Part shown: one piece after another, positions 44,704-61,786 of the stretch | Layout of the letters: each line of letters opens with the position of its first letter | Position numbering within the stretch: the stretch's first letter is position 1 | From: an uncultured candidatus Porisulfidus sp. | Lineage (GTDB): Bacteria > Pseudomonadota > Gammaproteobacteria > Poriferisulfidales > Poriferisulfidaceae | Direction of reading: 5' to 3' | DNA: 64,000 bases | NCBI GenBank assembly: GCA_965204575.1 | Contig: OZ241993.1 | Location: 1,408,001-1,472,000, forward strand | Program-made: the position numbers and the translations under genes | The notes under the pieces: generated by a model | Databases searched by the model: none | The model's input: only the letters and a program-made list of their open reading frames with translations | What the model was told of the DNA's origin: nothing

Positions 44704-45161
44704 CAGCGGCAGATGCATTCGACGAGGCGATGATGCGTCAGGCCTTGGGTCTGGCGGAGCAGGCGGCGAACGCCGAGGAAGTGCCGGTCGGTGCAGTCGT
44801 GACACTGGAGGGCACGGTGGTGGGCACCGGCCGCAATTGCAGCATCGAACGAAACGATCCCAGCGCGCATGCCGAGGTCGTCGCATTGCGCGAGGCCTGC
44901 CTGAAGGTCGGCAATTACCGCCTGCCGGGCGCCACCCTGTACGTCACGCTCGAGCCTTGCCTGATGTGCGTGGGCGCGACAGTCGCGGCGCGCGTGGCGC
45001 GCGTGGTCTTCGGCGCCGCGGATCCGAAAACGGGTTGTCTCGGCGGCGCGTACGATGTGCGTGAGCTGAATTTCCTGAATCATCGCTTCGCCGTGACTTC
45101 GGGCGTGTGCGCGACGGAAAGCGGAGCTTTGCTCCAGAAATTTTTCCAAGCACGCCGGTGA
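44700..45161 (+). CDS. tadA: tRNA adenosine deaminase
   Basis: [17 protein letters not shown] motifs. Confidence 0.93.
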
Positions 45162-45258
45162 AGATACGCAAACCATCCGGCTCGGCGTGCGGAGCCTATA
45201 CCAAGAATTAGGAGGCTCTTCGAGGTTTCGTGTGGAATCCGTGCTAGAGTAAATCATC

Positions 45259-46665
45259 ATGCACCGAGCCTCCCGCTATCGTCTGTATCCGAACCAGACG
45301 CAGGAGCGGCAGTTCGCGCAGTTGTGCGGGGCCGGGCGGTTCGTCCACAACGAGTTGCTGGCCGACCAGATTCGGGAATACAAGCGTTTCGAGGCCGGCG
45401 AGAGAGACAGGCCGGGGGTTTCGCAGTTTGATTTTGGCCCTCGGTTCACGCGGCTGAGGGCGAAGGAAGGCAACGAGTGGTTGCGGGAACTGTCGTTTCC
45501 CATTGTCCGCAGTTCGGGCGCATTTCCCCTAGCGTCTGCATTCGCGCATTTCTCCCGGCGGATTCGGGAAGGCAAGTGCGGCAAGCAGGCCGGGTTTCCC
45601 CGTTTCAAGGTCAAGGGCGTCAGCCGGGAGTCGTTCACGATCCCATGCGACGTAAAGGTGAAGAAAAAGCGGTTTTGGGTGCCGAAGGTGGGTTGGATCC
45701 GGATGAACCGTAAGGCGCAGTCGCGCACGCGCGGGGCCGACCCCTGGGACGGCGGCGAGGCCAAGGTCGCGGTGGTGTACCGGGAGCTGGACAAGTGGTA
45801 CATATCGGTGTTGTGGGAGGTGGAAGACCCGGACTGGCGCTGGCACGGCGGGGTCTGCGGCATCGATCGCAACTCGGAGAACCTAGCGGGCGCTTGGTGC
45901 GGAGGGCGGAAGCTCATCGAGATTCCGTACGAGCGGATCGGGAAGTACGAGGCGCGGGCCCGGCACTACCAGTGGCGGGCGAGCCACCGGGAGCGGACCG
46001 AACTGAAGGATGCCGACGGGGTGCCAGTGCGAACGAAGTCCGGCCGACCGATCAAGGTGCCCTCGAACCGGCGCCGGCGGCTGCAGTTGCGCGCGGCGAA
46101 GGCGAAGCGCAAGGCGGCGGAGATCCGCAAGGACTTCAGCCATCAGTCCTCGGCGGACCTGGCGCGGAACTTCCAGCACATCGTGCTGGAGGATCTGGAC
46201 GTGCAGGCGATGCGGCGCTCGGCGCGGGGGGCGAAGGAAAAGCCCGGGAAAAACGTCAAGGCGAAGTCCGCGCTGAACCGGAAGATGGCGCAGTCCTCCT
46301 GCATGGGAATGGTGGATCGTTTTCTGAAGTACAAGGCAACGGACCTGATTCGGGTGCCGGCGCGGAACACCAGCCGGGCGTGCGCGGAATGCGGACACGT
46401 GGAGGCGGACAACCGAAAGGAGCAGGCGCACTTCAAGTGCCAGGCCTGCGGACACACGGACCATGCGGACATCAATGCCGCACGAAACATCCTGGACCTG
46501 GGATTGAACAGGCTCCTGACCGGAGGCGCTCCGGTGACGGGACGGGGAGGGGACAACGAAGCGGAGGCATTCTTCTATGAATGCCTAGTGGAGACCGCCG
46601 ATGATCCGTCAACGATGCAGTGGAACTACCGGGGCTCGCCCCCCGACTTCCACACAAAATCGTGA
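45259..46665 (+). CDS. tnpB: TnpB RNA-guided endonuclease
   Basis: YRLYPN N-terminus, GFPRFK, RuvC GIDRN / VLEDL / ADINAARNI, CAECG..CQACG zinc finger. Confidence 0.93.
   Translation: MHRASRYRLYPNQTQERQFAQLCGAGRFVHNELLADQIREYKRFEAGERDRPGVSQFDFGPRFTRLRAKEGNEWLRELSFPIVRSSGAFPLASAFAHFSRRIREGKCGKQAGFPRFKVKGVSRESFTIPCDVKVKKKRFWVPKVGWIRMNRKAQSRTRGADPWDGGEAKVAVVYRELDKWYISVLWEVEDPDWRWHGGVCGIDRNSENLAGAWCGGRKLIEIPYERIGKYEARARHYQWRASHRERTELKDADGVPVRTKSGRPIKVPSNRRRRLQLRAAKAKRKAAEIRKDFSHQSSADLARNFQHIVLEDLDVQAMRRSARGAKEKPGKNVKAKSALNRKMAQSSCMGMVDRFLKYKATDLIRVPARNTSRACAECGHVEADNRKEQAHFKCQACGHTDHADINAARNILDLGLNRLLTGGAPVTGRGGDNEAEAFFYECLVETADDPSTMQWNYRGSPPDFHTKS
46519..46642 (+). ncRNA. putative omega-RNA (scaffold plus guide) overlapping the tnpB 3' end, copy 1
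   Basis: hairpins 46519-46535 and 46565-46586; TGACGG/CCGTCA pairing; TCAA at 46609-46612; boundaries approximate. Confidence 0.55.
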
Positions 46666-46790
46666 AGCGCCAATTAGGTATAATGCGTCGGCACCCAATT
46701 GGCTATAATGCGCCATCGAGATTTTAGGGATATTCGCGGGGAGCAGATGAGCAAAATATCCGTCTCAAACTTTCGACAAGGCTGGAATTG

Positions 46791-48647
46791 ATGGATACAT
46801 TCCTCTCGCTATTACTGGAACGAGCAAAGAAAAATCCGGACGTCCCGGCTTTTCGGACCAAGCGGATGGGCATCTGGAATCCCACTTCTTGGTCGCAAGC
46901 TCGCGACCAGGTTTCTGTCTTGGCTCAAGCGCTGAGCCAAAGCGGAGTCGGGGCGGGAACGCCAGTCGGAATCTTCGGCCCCAACGCCACCGACTTCTAC
47001 TTGGGTTACCTCGCAGTCCACAGTCTGGGAGGGATCGCGGTGCCAATCGGCTCGAACACGTTTGGCGAGGAACTGAGACAACAGATTGACGGTGCCGATG
47101 TTGAGCACGTTTTTTCGTTTGAGCAGCAGCATGTGGACGCCTTGCTGGAATGCGGGCAGACCTGTGTAAAGAAGATTTTCTACATCAATGGGCGGGGCAT
47201 GGAGAACTACGCCCAGCCCGAGTTGATGGCGCTGTCGGACGCCACGGAAGGGATTGAGGCTTCGACCGCATTTCTGGAACAAATGGAAGAGCAACGGAAT
47301 CCGGAGGAAACCGCGACCATCCTGTTCACCTCCGGCACCGGCCGCTCGGAGCGTCCGGTGGAACTGTCACATGGCGCCCTGATCGCGACGGCCCGCAGCA
47401 TCGCGCGACGTGAGACGATCACCGAGAAGGATGAACTGCTGGCATACCTGCCACTGTCGGTCTCCAGCGATTTCCTGTTCTCCTTTTCGCTGGCCCTGAC
47501 GACCGGCTGTACCCTGAACTGCCCGGAGAGCGACGACACGGTGTTGGAGAACATGCAGGAAATCGGTCCGAGCATCCTGTTCGGCCCGTCCTACGTTTAC
47601 AAGTACATCTACACCCATGCTTCCAACCGGATCGAGAGCGCCCGGTCGTTCGACACCAAGATCTATAAGGCGGCCGTGCGCGCCGTCATGACGGTCGCCT
47701 CGCACCGGGCTGCGGACCAGAAGGGCTCCTTCACTGATTGGCTGCTCTTCATGTTTGCGCGCATCACCACGTTCAGCCCGTTTTGCAATATCTACGGCTT
47801 GAGTCGCTTGCGTCTGGCGCTGACCGGCGGCGACGCGATTGCACCGGACGTGTTCAATTTCTTCCGGGCGATTGGTGTCGACTTGCGTGAGACGTACGGC
47901 CAGGTCGAGGGTTGCGCTTGCGTGACCATGCAATCCTCCGAAGATTGGAATTCGGATTCGGTCGGCTTGCCGCTCGACGGCACGGAAGTGCGTATTGAAA
48001 ATGGCGAAATATGGTTCCGTGGGCCGGGGCAGATGAAGGGGATCTACAAGAATCCGGAGGCAACGGCTGACAGCATCAAGGACGGCTGGGTGCGAACTCA
48101 TGACGCCGGCCACCTGGATGACCAGGGGCGTCTGCACGTGCATGGACAGATCGCCCGTATGGGGACATTGAACGGTGGCGGTGCGTTTGCGCCGGACATG
48201 CTGGAAACCCGTCTGCGTTCGTTCGAATACATCAAGCAGGCCATCGTCATCGGAGACGGGCGGGACTACCCGGTCGCAGTGGTGACGGTTGACGGCACGA
48301 TCACCCGGACCTGGGCGGACCGCCGCAGCCTGCGCTACACGGGTTATGCCGACCTCTCGGCTCACGCCTCGGTGCAGGAGATGGTCCGCGAATATATCCA
48401 GAAAGTCAACGAAGACCTCGCCGAAGATCCAGAAACCTCGAGCATGCAATTCCGCCGCTTCGCCATCCTGAACCGCGAATTCATGGCCTCAGCCGGCGAG
48501 GTGACGCCAACCCGGAAATTGCGTTGCCATGAAGTGGAGGAGAAGCACCGGGGGTTGATCGACGCGCTGTACAGCGACGCGTTGGAGTACACTTATACGG
48601 ACCCGGTGGACGAGGAATCCTACACCGTACCTTTGGGGAACGTTTGA
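46791..48647 (+). CDS. long-chain acyl-CoA synthetase-like AMP-binding protein (degenerate motifs)
   Basis: FTSGT, YLPLS, YGQVE, GEVTPTRKL motifs; heads an ABC operon. Confidence 0.85.
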   Translation: MDTFLSLLLERAKKNPDVPAFRTKRMGIWNPTSWSQARDQVSVLAQALSQSGVGAGTPVGIFGPNATDFYLGYLAVHSLGGIAVPIGSNTFGEELRQQIDGADVEHVFSFEQQHVDALLECGQTCVKKIFYINGRGMENYAQPELMALSDATEGIEASTAFLEQMEEQRNPEETATILFTSGTGRSERPVELSHGALIATARSIARRETITEKDELLAYLPLSVSSDFLFSFSLALTTGCTLNCPESDDTVLENMQEIGPSILFGPSYVYKYIYTHASNRIESARSFDTKIYKAAVRAVMTVASHRAADQKGSFTDWLLFMFARITTFSPFCNIYGLSRLRLALTGGDAIAPDVFNFFRAIGVDLRETYGQVEGCACVTMQSSEDWNSDSVGLPLDGTEVRIENGEIWFRGPGQMKGIYKNPEATADSIKDGWVRTHDAGHLDDQGRLHVHGQIARMGTLNGGGAFAPDMLETRLRSFEYIKQAIVIGDGRDYPVAVVTVDGTITRTWADRRSLRYTGYADLSAHASVQEMVREYIQKVNEDLAEDPETSSMQFRRFAILNREFMASAGEVTPTRKLRCHEVEEKHRGLIDALYSDALEYTYTDPVDEESYTVPLGNV

Positions 48648-59876: not shown

Positions 59877-60234
59877 TGGTGGAGGTGGCGGGAATCGAAC
59901 CCGCGTCCGGCAGTTCCTCCTCTTCGGCCCTACATGCTTAGCACCGTCTTTTGTCTCGCGATCAACACCCGACGGACAGGGCCCGATGATCACCAGCCTG
60001 CATGTTGACTTTAACCTTTCGGCTCCAGACAGACCGAACGGCGATCTTGTGTAGTCGACATCCATATCGGGGTCCACAAGCATCTCCCGAAAGGATGACT
60101 AGCCGGGATTAAGCGGCTAGTGCGTAGTTGTCGTCGTTGGCAACTAATTTTTTCGCAACCGTTTTTTACGAGGTCGTTGCCGCCTCGGCATGCGCCTTGG
60201 ATTTAGTAACCGCCGTCGAAGCCAGGTCACCCCC
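59877..60234 (-). ncRNA. ssrA: tmRNA
   Basis: 5' GGGGGTGAC; 3' GGTTCGATTCCC..CACCTCCACCA; tag ORF ANDDNYALAA* at 60141-60109. Confidence 0.96.
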
Positions 60235-60267
60235 AAGTCATCTGGAACCATTATACGAGATAATAGG

Positions 60268-61726
60268 GGGGCTTCGAGGTTTTGTGTGGAAAGTCGTGAT
60301 AGAGTACACGATCATGCACCGAGCCTCCCGCTACCGTCTGTATCCGAACCAGGCGCAGGAGCGGCAGTTCACGCGGCTGTGCGGAGCCGGGCGGTTCGTC
60401 TACAACGAACTGCTGGCCAACCAGATCCGGGAATACAAGCGTTTCGAGGCCGGCGAGAGGGAAAGACCGGGGGTTTCGCAGTTTGATTTTGGCCCTCGGT
60501 TCACGCGGCTGAGAACGAAGGAAGGCCACGAGTGGTTGCGGGAACTGTCGTTTCCCATTGCCCGCAGTTCGGGCGCGTTTCCCCTAGCATCTGCGTTCGC
60601 GCATTTCTCCCGGCGGATTCGGGAAGGCAAGTGCGGCAAACAGGCCGGATTCCCCCGTTTTAAGGTCAAGGGCGTCAGCCGGGAGTCATTTACGATCCCG
60701 TACAACGTGAAGGTGAAGAAAAAGCGGCTTTGGGTGCCGAAGGTCGGCTGGATTCGGATGAACCGCAAGGCGCAATCGCGCACGCGGGGGGCGGACCCCT
60801 GGGACGGCGGCGAGGCCAAGGTTGCGGTGGTGTACCGGGAACTGGACAAGTGGTACGTGTCGGTGCTGTGGGAGGTGGAAGATCCGGACTGGCGCTGGCA
60901 CGGTGGGGTCTGCGGGATTGACCGCAACTCGGAGAACATCGCGGGAGCCTGGAGCGGCGGGCGGAGGCTGATCGAGATTCCGTACAAGCGGATCGGGAAG
61001 TACGAGGCGCGGGCGCGGCACTACCAGTGGCGGGCGAGCCGCCGGGAACGAATCGAACTGAAGGACTCTGACGGGGAGCCGGTGCGCACGAAGTCTGGGC
61101 GGGTGGTCAAGATAGCCTCGAACCGGCGCCGACGGTTGCAGTTGCGCGCGGCGAAGGCGAAGCGCAAGGCGGCGGAAATCCGCAGGGACTTCAGCCATCA
61201 GGCCTCGGCGGACCTGGCTCGGAACTTCCAGCACATCGTGCTGGAGGACCTGGACGTGCAGGCGATGCGGCGCTCGGCGCGGGGGACGAGGGAGAAGCCC
61301 GGAAAAAACGTCAAGGCGAAGTCCGCGCTGAACCGGAAGATGGCGCAGTCCTCCTGCATGGGGATGGTGGACCGTTTCCTTCAGTACAAGGCAGCGGACC
61401 TGATCCGGGTGCCGGCGCGGAACACCAGCCGGGCGTGCGCGGAATGCGGGCACGTGGAGGCGGACAACCGGAAGGAGCAGGCGCACTTCAAGTGCCAAGC
61501 CTGCGGACACACGGACAATGCGGACATCAACGCCACACGAAACATCCTGGACCTGGGATTGAACAGGCTCCTGGCCGGAGGCGCTCCGGTGACGGGACGG
61601 GGAGGGGACAACGAAGCGGGGGCATTCTTCTATGAGTGTCTAGTGGACACCGCCGATGATCCGTCAACGATGCAGTGGAACTACCGGGGCTCGCCCCCTG
61701 ATTTCCACACAAATTCGTGAAGCGCC
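60268..61726 (+). mobile_element. non-autonomous TnpB-only element with ISL3-like TIRs (copy 2)
   Basis: 24-bp imperfect TIRs (60268-60291 / 61703-61726, 19/24 match); perfect 8-bp duplication ATAATAGG (60260-60267 / 61727-61734). Confidence 0.88.
60314..61720 (+). CDS. tnpB: TnpB RNA-guided endonuclease (copy 2)
   Basis: same 468-codon length as copy 1; RuvC D/E/D residues and zinc finger retained. Confidence 0.93.
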   Translation: MHRASRYRLYPNQAQERQFTRLCGAGRFVYNELLANQIREYKRFEAGERERPGVSQFDFGPRFTRLRTKEGHEWLRELSFPIARSSGAFPLASAFAHFSRRIREGKCGKQAGFPRFKVKGVSRESFTIPYNVKVKKKRLWVPKVGWIRMNRKAQSRTRGADPWDGGEAKVAVVYRELDKWYVSVLWEVEDPDWRWHGGVCGIDRNSENIAGAWSGGRRLIEIPYKRIGKYEARARHYQWRASRRERIELKDSDGEPVRTKSGRVVKIASNRRRRLQLRAAKAKRKAAEIRRDFSHQASADLARNFQHIVLEDLDVQAMRRSARGTREKPGKNVKAKSALNRKMAQSSCMGMVDRFLQYKAADLIRVPARNTSRACAECGHVEADNRKEQAHFKCQACGHTDNADINATRNILDLGLNRLLAGGAPVTGRGGDNEAGAFFYECLVDTADDPSTMQWNYRGSPPDFHTNS

Positions 61727-61786
61727 ATAATAGGCATGGAGTTCGCCTGCCTATCCGTACGAACCGATCCTCCGGCCGTCATTTTC

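What the first reader, a model, noticed from the sequence alone, without database searches (positions are those of the whole stretch)
45206..46679. TnpB carried by an ISL3-like element with terminal inverted repeats and 8-bp target duplications (two copies; second at 60260-61734)
Seen: two elements of 1458 and 1459 bp whose only gene is tnpB. Similarity between the copies spans one imperfect 24-bp inverted repeat to the other. Copy 1: left GGCTCTTCGAGGTTTCGTGTGGAA vs reverse-complemented right GGCGCTTCACGATTTTGTGTGGAA. Copy 2: GGGGCTTCGAGGTTTTGTGTGGAA vs GGCGCTTCACGAATTTGTGTGGAA. Both pairs match 19/24. Each copy has its own AT-rich direct repeat: ATAATAGG (8/8, copy 2) and AATTAGGA/AATTAGGT (7/8, copy 1). 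Only ~21 bp separate the left TIR from the ATG, so there is no room for an IS200/IS605 left-end hairpin. Known: the usual bacterial TnpB hosts (IS200/IS605 with Y1 TnpA, IS607 with a serine recombinase) lack TIRs and target duplications. GG-initiated TIRs such as GGCTCTTC with 8-bp AT-rich duplications are typical of ISL3 DDE elements. Inference: an RNA-guided nuclease has been captured by a non-autonomous ISL3 derivative and is moved in trans by a DDE transposase, a prokaryotic parallel to Fanzor capture by DDE transposons. I cannot confirm that this is unreported.
Basis: partly seen in the sequence, partly recalled or inferred. Interest (0 to 1): 0.92.

Follow-up and report, generated by a model that had tools for sequence, protein, structure and literature searches.

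The report
TnpB nuclease riding an ISL3-derived transposon
Two copies in this window (six in the genome) of a 1.46-kb mobile element carry only an RNA-guided nuclease gene (tnpB) but have the end sequences and 8-bp insertion footprint of an ISL3 transposon that lives in the same genome, so the nuclease appears to hitch-hike on a cut/copy-and-paste transposase rather than on its usual partners.

Summary
Both window elements (45214-46671 and 60268-61726) end in 24-bp inverted repeats, are flanked by 8-bp duplications, and hold one intact 468-aa tnpB.

The genome has six such copies. Same-genus genomes hold at least 27 further insertion sites.

Orthologous empty sites in relatives carry a single copy of the 8-mer for both window copies, which fixes the boundaries.

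The predicted partner exists. Three identical 1348-bp ISL3 elements in the same genome have a full ISL3 transposase, 8/8 duplications and near-identical inverted repeats (22/24). An ISL3 end in a related genome matches a TnpB-element end 24/24. The genome has no Y1 TnpA and no serine recombinase.

New here: the base just 5' of the left duplication is G in 31 of 33 TnpB-element sites (TG in 19), against 3 of 17 ISL3 end-flanks. This looks like a TAM for a guide made of the duplication plus the right flank. Synonymous change collapses in the tnpB 3' tail, which folds together with the right repeat, as an omega-RNA scaffold would.

TnpB linked to DDE transposons with inverted ends was reported in general in 2023. 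I did not find ISL3 in print. I rate this a new variant of a known kind.

The parts
45202..45205 (+). Candidate TAM position of copy 1 (CAAG; the G at 45205 is position -1 relative to the left duplication)
   Evidence: G at -1 in 31 of 33 distinct TnpB-element sites, binomial p = 2e-14 against 30% G. Its role as a TAM is inferred.
45206..45213 (.). Left target-site duplication of copy 1 (AATTAGGA)
   Evidence: Empty sites in 6 relatives' loci carry a single AATTAGGT or AATTGGGT.
45214..45237 (+). Left 24-bp terminal inverted repeat of copy 1
45259..46665 (+). tnpB, 468 aa plus stop. RuvC motifs GIDRN (D203), LEDL (E311) and HADINAARN (D404), and two CxxC pairs
   Evidence: Pfam. NCBIfam guided_TnpB 181 bits, cut-off 100. 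PDB TnpB homologues. Invariant residues. dN/dS 0.14-0.18.
46498..46671 (+). Putative omega-RNA scaffold, 3' part (its 5' limit is unknown). It overlaps tnpB codons about 414-468 and the right TIR
   Evidence: Highest nucleotide conservation, 0.93. No third-position excess in codons 414-440. dS falls from 0.27-0.50 to 0.03-0.17. Consensus structure is 95.8% paired with 7 compensatory pairs. No Rfam match. No RNA ends were mapped.
46648..46671 (-). Right 24-bp terminal inverted repeat of copy 1. It matches the tnp-upstream TIR of the genome's ISL3 22/24
46672..46679 (.). Right target-site duplication of copy 1 (AATTAGGT). Predicted to be the first 8 nt of the guide
   Evidence: The guide role is inferred.
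60256..60259 (+). Candidate TAM position of copy 2 (CGAG)
60260..60267 (.). Left target-site duplication of copy 2 (ATAATAGG)
   Evidence: Single copy in 9 empty-site loci; 5 read ATAATAGG and 4 read a variant.
60268..60291 (+). Left TIR of copy 2
60314..61720 (+). tnpB of copy 2 (468 aa plus stop), 92% identical to copy 1
61703..61726 (-). Right TIR of copy 2
61727..61734 (.). Right target-site duplication of copy 2 (ATAATAGG)

Best explanation
Each element is a non-autonomous derivative of an ISL3-family insertion sequence. It keeps only the two 24-bp ISL3 ends, and its single gene is an intact TnpB RNA-guided nuclease.

Shown:
- It inserts like a DDE element, with inverted ends and an 8-bp AT-rich target duplication.
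- Relatives carry exact empty sites.
- An autonomous ISL3 with a full transposase and near-identical ends is in the same genome.

Inferred:
- That ISL3 transposase moves the TnpB element in trans.
- TnpB is not idle cargo. Its 3' tail and the right repeat would form the omega-RNA scaffold.
- Transcription would run out over the right end, so the guide is the 8-bp duplication plus the next roughly 8-12 nt of flank.
- That guide matches only the empty (or excised) site. There it is preceded by the left flank, which ends in G (mostly TG) in nearly all surviving insertions. This would be a minimal TAM.
- The occupied site is protected because the right repeat ends in CC.
- Cutting empty alleles and repairing them from an occupied copy would keep or spread those insertions that landed 3' of a TAM.
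For: Ends and footprint:
- Four TIR hits in the window against 0 in shuffles.
- Of 22 full-length TnpB elements with both ends found (6 in this genome, 16 in relatives), the 8-bp duplications match 8/8 in 10, 7/8 in 7, 6/8 in 2 and 4/8 or fewer in 3.
- Empty sites with one 8-mer: 6 loci for copy 1 and 9 for copy 2. A contig of run X1 joins 45205 to 46672, skipping 1466 = 1458 + 8.

Partner:
- Three 100% identical 1348-bp ISL3 copies.
- Transposase: NCBIfam ISL3 equivalog 283 bits, cut-off 180; Pfam DDE_Tnp_ISL3, Zn_ribbon_ISL3 and HTH_Tnp_ISL3.
- TIRs GGCGCATCACGGTTTTGTGTGGAA and GGGTCTTCACGGAATTGTGTGGAA.
- 8/8 duplications in 8 of 8 ISL3 copies that have both flanks.
- The ISL3 end in L066 is 24/24 identical to the left end of the G009 TnpB elements.
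- ISL3 and the TnpB element share nothing but the TIRs.
- No Y1_Tnp and no Resolvase hit in a one-contig genome that is 98.75% complete.

TnpB is functional:
- All 6 ORFs are intact at 466-468 aa.
- dN/dS is 0.14-0.18.
- D203, E311, D404 and 4 Cys are invariant in 8 sequences down to 58% identity.

Omega-RNA and TAM:
- dS collapses in the tail.
- Structure with compensatory pairs that includes the right TIR.
- No terminator-like site in 45150-46760.
- G at -1 in 31/33 sites, p = 2e-14; TG in 19/33. ISL3 end-flanks show G in 3/17, Fisher p = 7e-8.
- There is no matching C after the right duplication (by eye). The bias is therefore tied to the orientation of tnpB.
Against: - No transposition, RNA or cleavage data exist. 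The RNA run is kept as contigs only, and it may hold DNA.
- The G bias could be a target preference of the transposase acting on asymmetric ends. The ISL3 control has only 17 end-flanks from 9 copies of about 4 element types.
- A one- or two-base TAM would be unusually short for a TnpB.
- A second TnpB family with other TIRs also has G at -1 in 6/6 sites, so the G is not specific to this family.
- Folding energies of the terminal 70-82 nt are only weakly below shuffles (z from -0.2 to -1.5; one at -3.0).
- Compensatory pairs come mostly from one divergent clade, that is, from few events.
- G009 has four copies 98-99% identical to each other, but only an internally deleted ISL3.
- G001, G002, G003, G005 and G011 have TnpB elements but no full ISL3 hit. 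Some of these are draft assemblies.
- If ISL3 transposes by copy-out-paste-in (recalled from work on circle formation in this family, not checked here), excision is rare and a retention role is less needed.
Confidence: 0.82

Rival explanations
1. ISL3 moves the element in trans, but TnpB is only a passenger or serves something unrelated to the transposon. The G before the left duplication is a target or orientation preference of the transposase.
For: The G is also seen in a second TnpB family with different TIRs (6/6). The ISL3 control set is small (17 end-flanks). No RNA ends or cleavage data exist.
Against: tnpB is under purifying selection in copies 8-20% diverged, with catalytic residues intact. 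Synonymous sites are frozen in the 3' tail, which pairs with the right TIR. The bias is one-sided and follows the orientation of tnpB. Autonomous ISL3 copies lack it, with G in 3/17 end-flanks.
Confidence: 0.25
2. The guide is not the flank. The omega-RNA scaffold would end at the internal, family-wide GTCAA (46607-46611) or at the TTCCAC stem. The guide would then be a fixed internal sequence or the outer 16-18 nt of the right TIR, and TnpB would act on transposon ends.
For: GTCAA is conserved in all three TnpB families of the genome, 43-59 nt from the right end. TCAA is a common right-end cleavage motif of IS605 elements (PMC9956272, passage seen). In the predicted fold the last ~18 nt of the TIR are only weakly paired: a 5-bp helix (80% of cells paired) and a 3-bp helix.
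Against: It does not explain the G at -1 of the left flank. The stretch between GTCAA and the TIR is structured and covaries like scaffold. A guide that matches the element's own end would target the element itself.
Confidence: 0.08
3. A canonical IS200/IS605 (IS1341-type) or IS607 element moved by a Y1 or serine TnpA. The inverted ends and duplications would be coincidental.
For: TnpB is normally found in such elements. There is a fossil-like GTCAA near the 3' end.
Against: No Y1_Tnp or Resolvase hit in the genome. TIRs sit at the exact limits of similarity. 17 of 22 elements have 7-8/8 duplications. Empty sites hold one 8-mer. Only 21 bp lie between the left end and the ATG.
Confidence: 0.02
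4. An enzyme other than the ISL3 transposase moves these elements: an unseen transposase, or TnpB itself.
For: Other TnpB families in this genome and order also have GGG-initiated ~25-bp TIRs and 8-bp duplications, yet no partner transposase was found. G009 has young copies but only a deleted ISL3.
Against: For this family, TIR identity with ISL3 is 22/24 to 24/24 and the footprint is the same 8 bp. RuvC nucleases are not known to make such duplications (established knowledge, recalled).
Confidence: 0.06

Closest known systems
DDE-transposase-associated TnpB branches (DDE-1 to DDE-6) of Altae-Tran et al. 2023, PNAS (PMC10691335; section 9 read)
   Same: Prokaryotic TnpB sits inside elements with inverted terminal repeats. 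The tnpB 3' end lies within 250 bp of the transposon end. Solo TnpB has the same ends as transposase-bearing elements, which the authors read as mobilisation in trans.
   Different: The only DDE family named in the main text is IS630. A 2026 review (PMC13565253; passages seen) lists ISL2, IS630 and IS1031. 'ISL' occurs 0 times in the main text. Here no element of the 22 full and 11 partial ones examined holds both genes. Target duplications, empty sites and a TAM-like flank bias are shown here. The supplements could not be seen, so membership in a DDE branch is unknown.
IS1341-group (TnpB-only) members of IS200/IS605
   Same: An element of about 1.4 kb whose only gene is tnpB. The gene is a TnpB by NCBIfam guided_TnpB. 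A GTCAA lies near the 3' end.
   Different: IS200/IS605 elements have no TIRs and no target duplications, and they insert 3' of a fixed 4-5-mer (PMC13565253, passage seen). These elements have both TIRs and duplications, and the genome has no Y1 TnpA. The protein scores below the IS200_TnpB and IS607_TnpB cut-offs.
Fanzor (eukaryotic TnpB) in TIR/TSD DDE transposons (Bao and Jurka 2013, PMC3627910, listing only; PMC10711439, passages seen)
   Same: An RNA-guided nuclease captured by cut-and-paste type transposons. The TIR is predicted to be part of the guide-RNA scaffold. The RNA reads out past the end.
   Different: In Fanzor elements the duplication is short and fixed, and it is predicted to be part of the scaffold. 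Here the 8-mer differs at every site, so it would have to be guide. The host is bacterial.
ISL3-family insertion sequences and their non-autonomous derivatives
   Same: TIRs that start with GG, 8-bp AT-rich duplications, and a transposase ORF that ends inside the right TIR. The family definition is recalled from ISfinder descriptions, not from a call.
   Different: The transposase gene is replaced by tnpB, in the opposite orientation relative to the two end types: the GGCGC-type end is upstream of tnp but downstream of tnpB.

Membership tests
TnpB (OMEGA RNA-guided nuclease) | Sequence membership in the TnpB family | tested here: met
   NCBIfam guided_TnpB 181.3 bits, cut-off 100. Pfam HTH_OrfB_IS605 and Cas12f1-like_TNB are above cut-off; OrfB_IS605 scores 28.6-30.0 against a cut-off of 30.5. 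PDB TnpB chains match at E = 1e-24 to 1e-16.
TnpB (OMEGA RNA-guided nuclease) | RuvC D-E-D triad and zinc ribbon | tested here: met
   D203, E311, D404, C375, C378, C394 and C397 are invariant in 8 sequences. Which residues are catalytic is assigned from recalled motifs.
TnpB (OMEGA RNA-guided nuclease) | Omega-RNA encoded at the 3' end, with the guide taken from the flank | tested here: inconclusive
   Nucleotide-level constraint and a covarying structure. No Rfam hit. No RNA ends could be mapped.
TnpB (OMEGA RNA-guided nuclease) | TAM-dependent DNA cleavage | not testable with these tools
   Only the flank bias is available: G at -1 in 31/33 sites.
IS200/IS605 transposon (including the IS1341 group) | No TIRs and no target duplication | tested here: not met
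   24-bp TIRs and 8-bp duplications.
IS200/IS605 transposon (including the IS1341 group) | Y1 (HUH) TnpA in cis or in the genome | tested here: not met
   0 hits to PF01797 in the complete genome.
IS607 | Serine-recombinase TnpA | tested here: not met
   0 hits to PF00239.
ISL3 family (as a non-autonomous derivative) | TIRs starting with GG, shared with an ISL3 transposase-bearing element | tested here: met
   22/24 to the ISL3 in the same genome. 24/24 between the L066 ISL3 end and the G009 TnpB elements.
ISL3 family (as a non-autonomous derivative) | 8-bp AT-rich target duplication | tested here: met
   17 of 22 elements match 7-8/8. Empty sites found. A or T is the commonest base at duplication positions 1-8.
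ISL3 family (as a non-autonomous derivative) | Own DDE_Tnp_ISL3 transposase | tested here: not met
   No such gene is in the element. It is present in trans in 3 copies.
ISL3 family (as a non-autonomous derivative) | Mobilised by the ISL3 transposase | not testable with these tools
   Inferred from the shared ends and footprint.
DDE-associated TnpB branches (Altae-Tran 2023) | Placement in one of the branches DDE-1 to DDE-6 | not testable with these tools
DDE-associated TnpB branches (Altae-Tran 2023) | DDE transposase encoded beside tnpB within the same ends | tested here: not met
   None of the 22 full elements has room for it, at 1457-1596 bp.

The most novel reading that the evidence does not exclude
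TnpB has adapted to a DDE host that inserts almost anywhere.

- It uses a minimal TAM (G, preferably TG).
- It takes the variable 8-bp target duplication as the first part of its guide.
- Only insertions that happened to land 3' of a G are kept or driven.

The 31/33 bias would then be a natural-population footprint of TnpB-dependent retention of a DDE transposon.

Beyond this family, TnpB-only elements with GGG-initiated TIRs and 8-bp duplications are the rule in this bacterial order. At least three TIR types occur in at least four genera, and most have no transposase partner in the genome. This points to a wider, largely unrecognised way of life for 'IS1341-like' elements.
Probability: 0.4. 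Interest if true: 0.8.

Novelty: new variant of a known kind. Interest (0 to 1): 0.64.

Why it matters
What TnpB does for a transposon that excises with a double-strand break, or copies itself out, is an open question. The 2026 review (PMC13565253; passages seen) calls the link between OMEGA systems and DDE transposases rare, and offers inflexible target recognition as a reason.

This family gives a clean natural system to test that:
- a compact autonomous ISL3;
- a TnpB-only derivative with the same ends;
- many dated insertions with empty-site controls;
- a concrete, checkable prediction for TAM and guide.

A TnpB with a one- or two-base TAM would also interest genome-editing work.

Tried and rejected
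- Rfam on 45100-46800 at E up to 5 gave only chance-level miRNA/snoRNA hits.
- The sigma-70 and terminator scan of 45150-46760 found no sites of either kind. I give no promoter for tnpB or for the RNA.
- Sequencing runs: one RNA library (X1, share 0.07) and three runs of unrecorded kind, all kept as contigs. They cannot show starts, ends, strand or level. Parts of the element without X1 cover are no finding. A 190-nt X1 contig covers 46498-46672 and runs on for 15 unlike letters. At most this is a weak hint that some copy is represented across its right end.
- The metagenome scan gave only 5 loci. Three repeat known sites and one adds a new left end.
- The plasmid collection holds only relatives at 34% identity or less.
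- The weak PF01610 hit present once in nearly every genome (L004 and others) is the C-terminal tail of a desaturase-like membrane protein (NCBIfam 'DesA/ISL3 alpha bundle tail'). It is not a transposase.
- The other multi-copy transposons of the genome have unrelated ends: one DDE_Tnp_1_4 element with CCCCGAT... ends, and two IS110 types.
- Literature. TnpB + ISL3: 14 papers, none on this. TnpB + TIR + TSD + DDE. TnpB + IS630 + IS1031. ISL3 family + circular intermediate + excision: 4 papers, none useful; PMC12056078 passages seen. IS1341 + inverted + direct repeats. TnpB + DDE transposase + in trans. I found no description of TnpB in ISL3-type elements. The supplements of PMC10691335 may hold one.
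- How ISL3 elements excise or copy out was not found in the library. What I say on it is recalled.
- The -10-like TAGAGT between the left TIR and the ATG, and a possible leaderless mRNA, were considered but not tested.
Full report
**Observation**

The two stretches are as described. Copy 1 runs from 45214 to 46671 (1458 bp) and copy 2 from 60268 to 61726 (1459 bp). A degenerate form of the 24-bp end sequence hits the window four times, exactly at the four ends and in inverted pairs. It hit none of 100 shuffles. Within each copy the two ends match 19/24.

The copies are 91.9% identical, and the flanks do not align. Copy 1 is flanked by AATTAGGA and AATTAGGT; copy 2 by ATAATAGG on both sides. 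The only long ORF is a 468-aa TnpB:
- Pfam HTH_OrfB_IS605, OrfB_IS605 and Cas12f1-like_TNB;
- NCBIfam guided_TnpB at 181 bits, cut-off 100;
- homologues among solved TnpB structures.

The ATG lies 21-22 bp inside the left end, and the stop codon lies inside the right end.

**More copies, and proof of the boundaries**

The genome is one contig of 1.82 Mb with 60% G+C, and the window is C1:1408001-1472000. It holds six full copies, 80-92% identical to each other. All have intact ORFs of 466-468 aa.

Same-genus genomes hold many more. The record titles of the matching loci name Candidatus Porisulfidus and uncultured Chromatiales or Gammaproteobacteria MAGs from sponges. One subclade there is only 58-60% identical in protein.

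Of 22 full-length elements with both ends found, the 8-bp flanking repeats match as follows:
- 8/8 in 10 elements;
- 7/8 in 7;
- 6/8 in 2;
- 4/8 or fewer in 3.

One of the three failures is explained. The right 8-mer of L094 equals the left 8-mer of a copy at a contig end, L116. This points to recombination between copies or to an assembly join.

For both window copies, the orthologous sites in relatives are empty and carry one copy of the 8-mer. Six loci read ...CCAAG AATTAGGT ATAATG... or a close variant. Nine loci read ...TACGAG ATAATAGG CATGG... or a variant. A contig of run X1 also joins 45205 to 46672, skipping 1466 bases, which is the element plus one 8-mer.

The element therefore ends exactly at the inverted repeats and makes an 8-bp target duplication. 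That is the mark of a DDE transposase and is foreign to IS200/IS605 and IS607.

**The partner**

A search with the ISL3 transposase family finds three full hits in the genome. They lie in three 100% identical 1348-bp elements.

These elements are bounded by GGCGCATCACGGTTTTGTGTGGAA (upstream of the transposase gene) and GGGTCTTCACGGAATTGTGTGGAA. Each has a perfect 8-bp duplication: GAACATTT, CCTAAAGT and AATCTATT.

The 433-aa product is an ISL3-family transposase by NCBIfam equivalog (283 bits, cut-off 180). Pfam finds its three domains.

The right end of the TnpB element matches the ISL3 end 22/24. The two elements share nothing else. In a related genome, an ISL3 end (L066) is 24/24 identical to the left end of the TnpB elements of another genome. 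The ends of the two kinds of element therefore evolve together.

All 8 ISL3 copies with both flanks have 8/8 duplications.

The genome has no Y1 TnpA and no serine recombinase. Its other multi-copy transposons have unrelated ends.

ISL3 and TnpB elements are distributed independently:
- G006 has four ISL3 copies and no TnpB element.
- Several genomes have TnpB elements and no full ISL3 hit.

This fits mobilisation in trans, but it also means the helper is often missing.

**Is TnpB doing anything?**

The copies have diverged to dS 0.27-0.50, yet dN/dS is 0.14-0.18 over codons 1-413. The RuvC residues D203, E311 and D404 and four zinc-ribbon cysteines are invariant down to 58% identity.

After the RuvC-III motif the pattern changes:
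- Nucleotide conservation peaks at 0.93 at element positions 1291-1335.
- The third-position excess disappears in codons 414-440.
- dS falls to 0.03-0.17.

The constraint there is on the nucleic acid.

A consensus fold of the last 200 nt of 20 copies gives a set of hairpins. The extended structure I tested has 95.8% of cells paired, against 35-49% when partners are slid. It has 7 pairs with compensatory changes, a number reached by 3 of 500 shuffles.

Two of its helices pair upstream sequence with the right inverted repeat: GUGGAA with UUCCAC, and ACGAU with AUCGU.

Caveats:
- The structure was derived from copy 1.
- Most compensatory changes come from the one divergent clade.
- Folding energies are only weakly better than shuffles.

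No Rfam family matches. I read this region as the omega-RNA scaffold with the transposase-binding end built into it, as has been predicted for Fanzor elements (PMC10711439; passages seen). No RNA has been seen.

**A TAM-like signal**

I read every distinct insertion site in the orientation of tnpB. There are 33 sites after removing one duplicate.
- The base just before the left duplication is G in 31 of them (p = 2e-14 against 30% G).
- The two bases are TG in 19.
- The third base back is C in 15.

The two exceptions are L099, which abuts another element's end, and L119, whose end is ambiguous.

There is no matching C after the right duplication (by eye). The bias is therefore one-sided and follows the gene.

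ISL3 copies show G in 3 of 17 end-flanks (Fisher p = 7e-8).

This position is where a TAM must lie if three things hold:
- the guide is transcribed outward from the right end;
- the guide therefore begins with the duplication;
- the target is the empty site, that is, left flank, one 8-mer, right flank.

The occupied site has ...GCGCC in that place, which never ends in G. The left copy of the 8-mer is followed by the repeat and so matches only 8 nt of the guide.

The simplest reading is this: the transposase inserts with little regard for this base, and only insertions next to a TAM benefit from TnpB and persist. The ages fit. ISL3 copies are identical to each other, while TnpB elements are old.

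I hold this at about even odds. The alternative is a preference of the transposase for asymmetric ends. A second TnpB family with different ends also shows G in 6 of 6 sites.

**Comparison with what is known**

Altae-Tran et al. 2023 (section 9 read) reported:
- six TnpB branches associated with DDE transposases;
- inverted terminal repeats around all six;
- solo TnpB with the same ends, suggesting mobilisation in trans.

IS630 is the only family named in the main text. A 2026 review lists ISL2, IS630 and IS1031 and calls the association rare.

Six literature searches found nothing on ISL3. The supplements were closed.

The present case is therefore a new variant of a known kind. The gene is a TnpB. 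The transposon is not an IS200/IS605 or IS607 member, because the defining features were tested and not met. It behaves as a non-autonomous ISL3 derivative.

New points are:
- the ISL3 family as host;
- the strict separation of nuclease and transposase into two elements;
- the proof by empty sites;
- the variable 8-mer that would have to serve as guide rather than scaffold;
- the flank bias.

**Verdict**

- Confidence in an ISL3-derived, trans-mobilised TnpB element: about 0.8.
- Confidence in the TAM and retention reading: about 0.4-0.5.

Noticed in passing
G000:C1:226531-227949, 266612-268030 and about 362141-363560 (family A); 443465-444772, 834207-835524, 1618196-1619511 and others (family B). 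All lie outside the window.: The genome's other two TnpB families also end in ~25-bp inverted repeats that start with GGG (GGGAATTGTATACGATAATCCGCAA; GGGAATTATGTATGAAAGTTGACA). They have 8-bp duplications, for example CTATAAAT and TGGATATA. No transposase with these ends was found. Family A in relatives has G before the left duplication in 6/6 sites.
   Followed up: partly
L146, L148 (G020); L151-L154 (G024, G030); L155-L157 (G009): TnpB-only elements of other genera of the same order have TIRs such as GGGAATTATATAGTTAACTTGACA and 8-bp AT-rich duplications (AAACATAA, AATAGTAG, ATTTTTCT). These genomes have no full ISL3 hit. TIR-type TnpB elements seem to be the rule in this order.
   Followed up: partly
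window 59877-60234 (-) and 60260-60267: Copy 2 sits 26 bp upstream of the tmRNA gene (Rfam 228 bits). On the tmRNA strand it lies just upstream of a TATAAT. The element's left end therefore replaces whatever lay at the -35 position. Copy 1's right duplication also overlaps a TATAAT (46678-46683).
   Followed up: no
G000:C1:624981-625020 (L125) and 965327: A 40-bp stretch made of two facing TIR halves (a minimal end-to-end remnant with no duplication) and a solo TIR. Short fragments of the element lie at 1295708, 1479682 and 1563883.
   Followed up: no
L010 positions 54 and 64 (the same site as L099): Two element ends lie back to back, 9 bp apart. Either two insertions hit one spot or this is a tandem arrangement. 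It is one of the two sites without G at -1.
   Followed up: no
L094 right flank and L116 left flank: The 8-mer ACATGGCT flanks the right end of one copy and the left end of another on a different scaffold. This suggests recombination between copies or an assembly join, and it explains one of the 'missing' duplications.
   Followed up: no
L068 (G009:C1:75163-76201): An internally deleted ISL3 of 1039 bp, with TIR GGCTCTTCGTCCATTGGTGTGGG and duplication TGTAAAGA. It is the only ISL3 in a genome whose four TnpB elements differ by only 17-35 of 1596 bases.
   Followed up: partly
L114 versus L110: A contig titled as a Nitrospira MAG carries the same left flank and element as a contig of a gammaproteobacterial MAG. 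This is mis-binning or very recent transfer.
   Followed up: no
L004 (G000:C1:793171-794421, - strand) and single-copy counterparts in nearly all genomes of the order: A 416-aa membrane desaturase-like protein has a C-terminal tail that scores 31-48 bits on the ISL3 transposase model. NCBIfam has a 'DesA/ISL3 alpha bundle tail' model.
   Followed up: yes
ISL3 (L002:985-2286) and tnpB (window 45259-46665): Both ORFs run into the right-hand inverted repeat in the frame that reads TTCCACAC as Phe-His-Thr (...PPFHTIP* and ...PPDFHTKS*).
   Followed up: no
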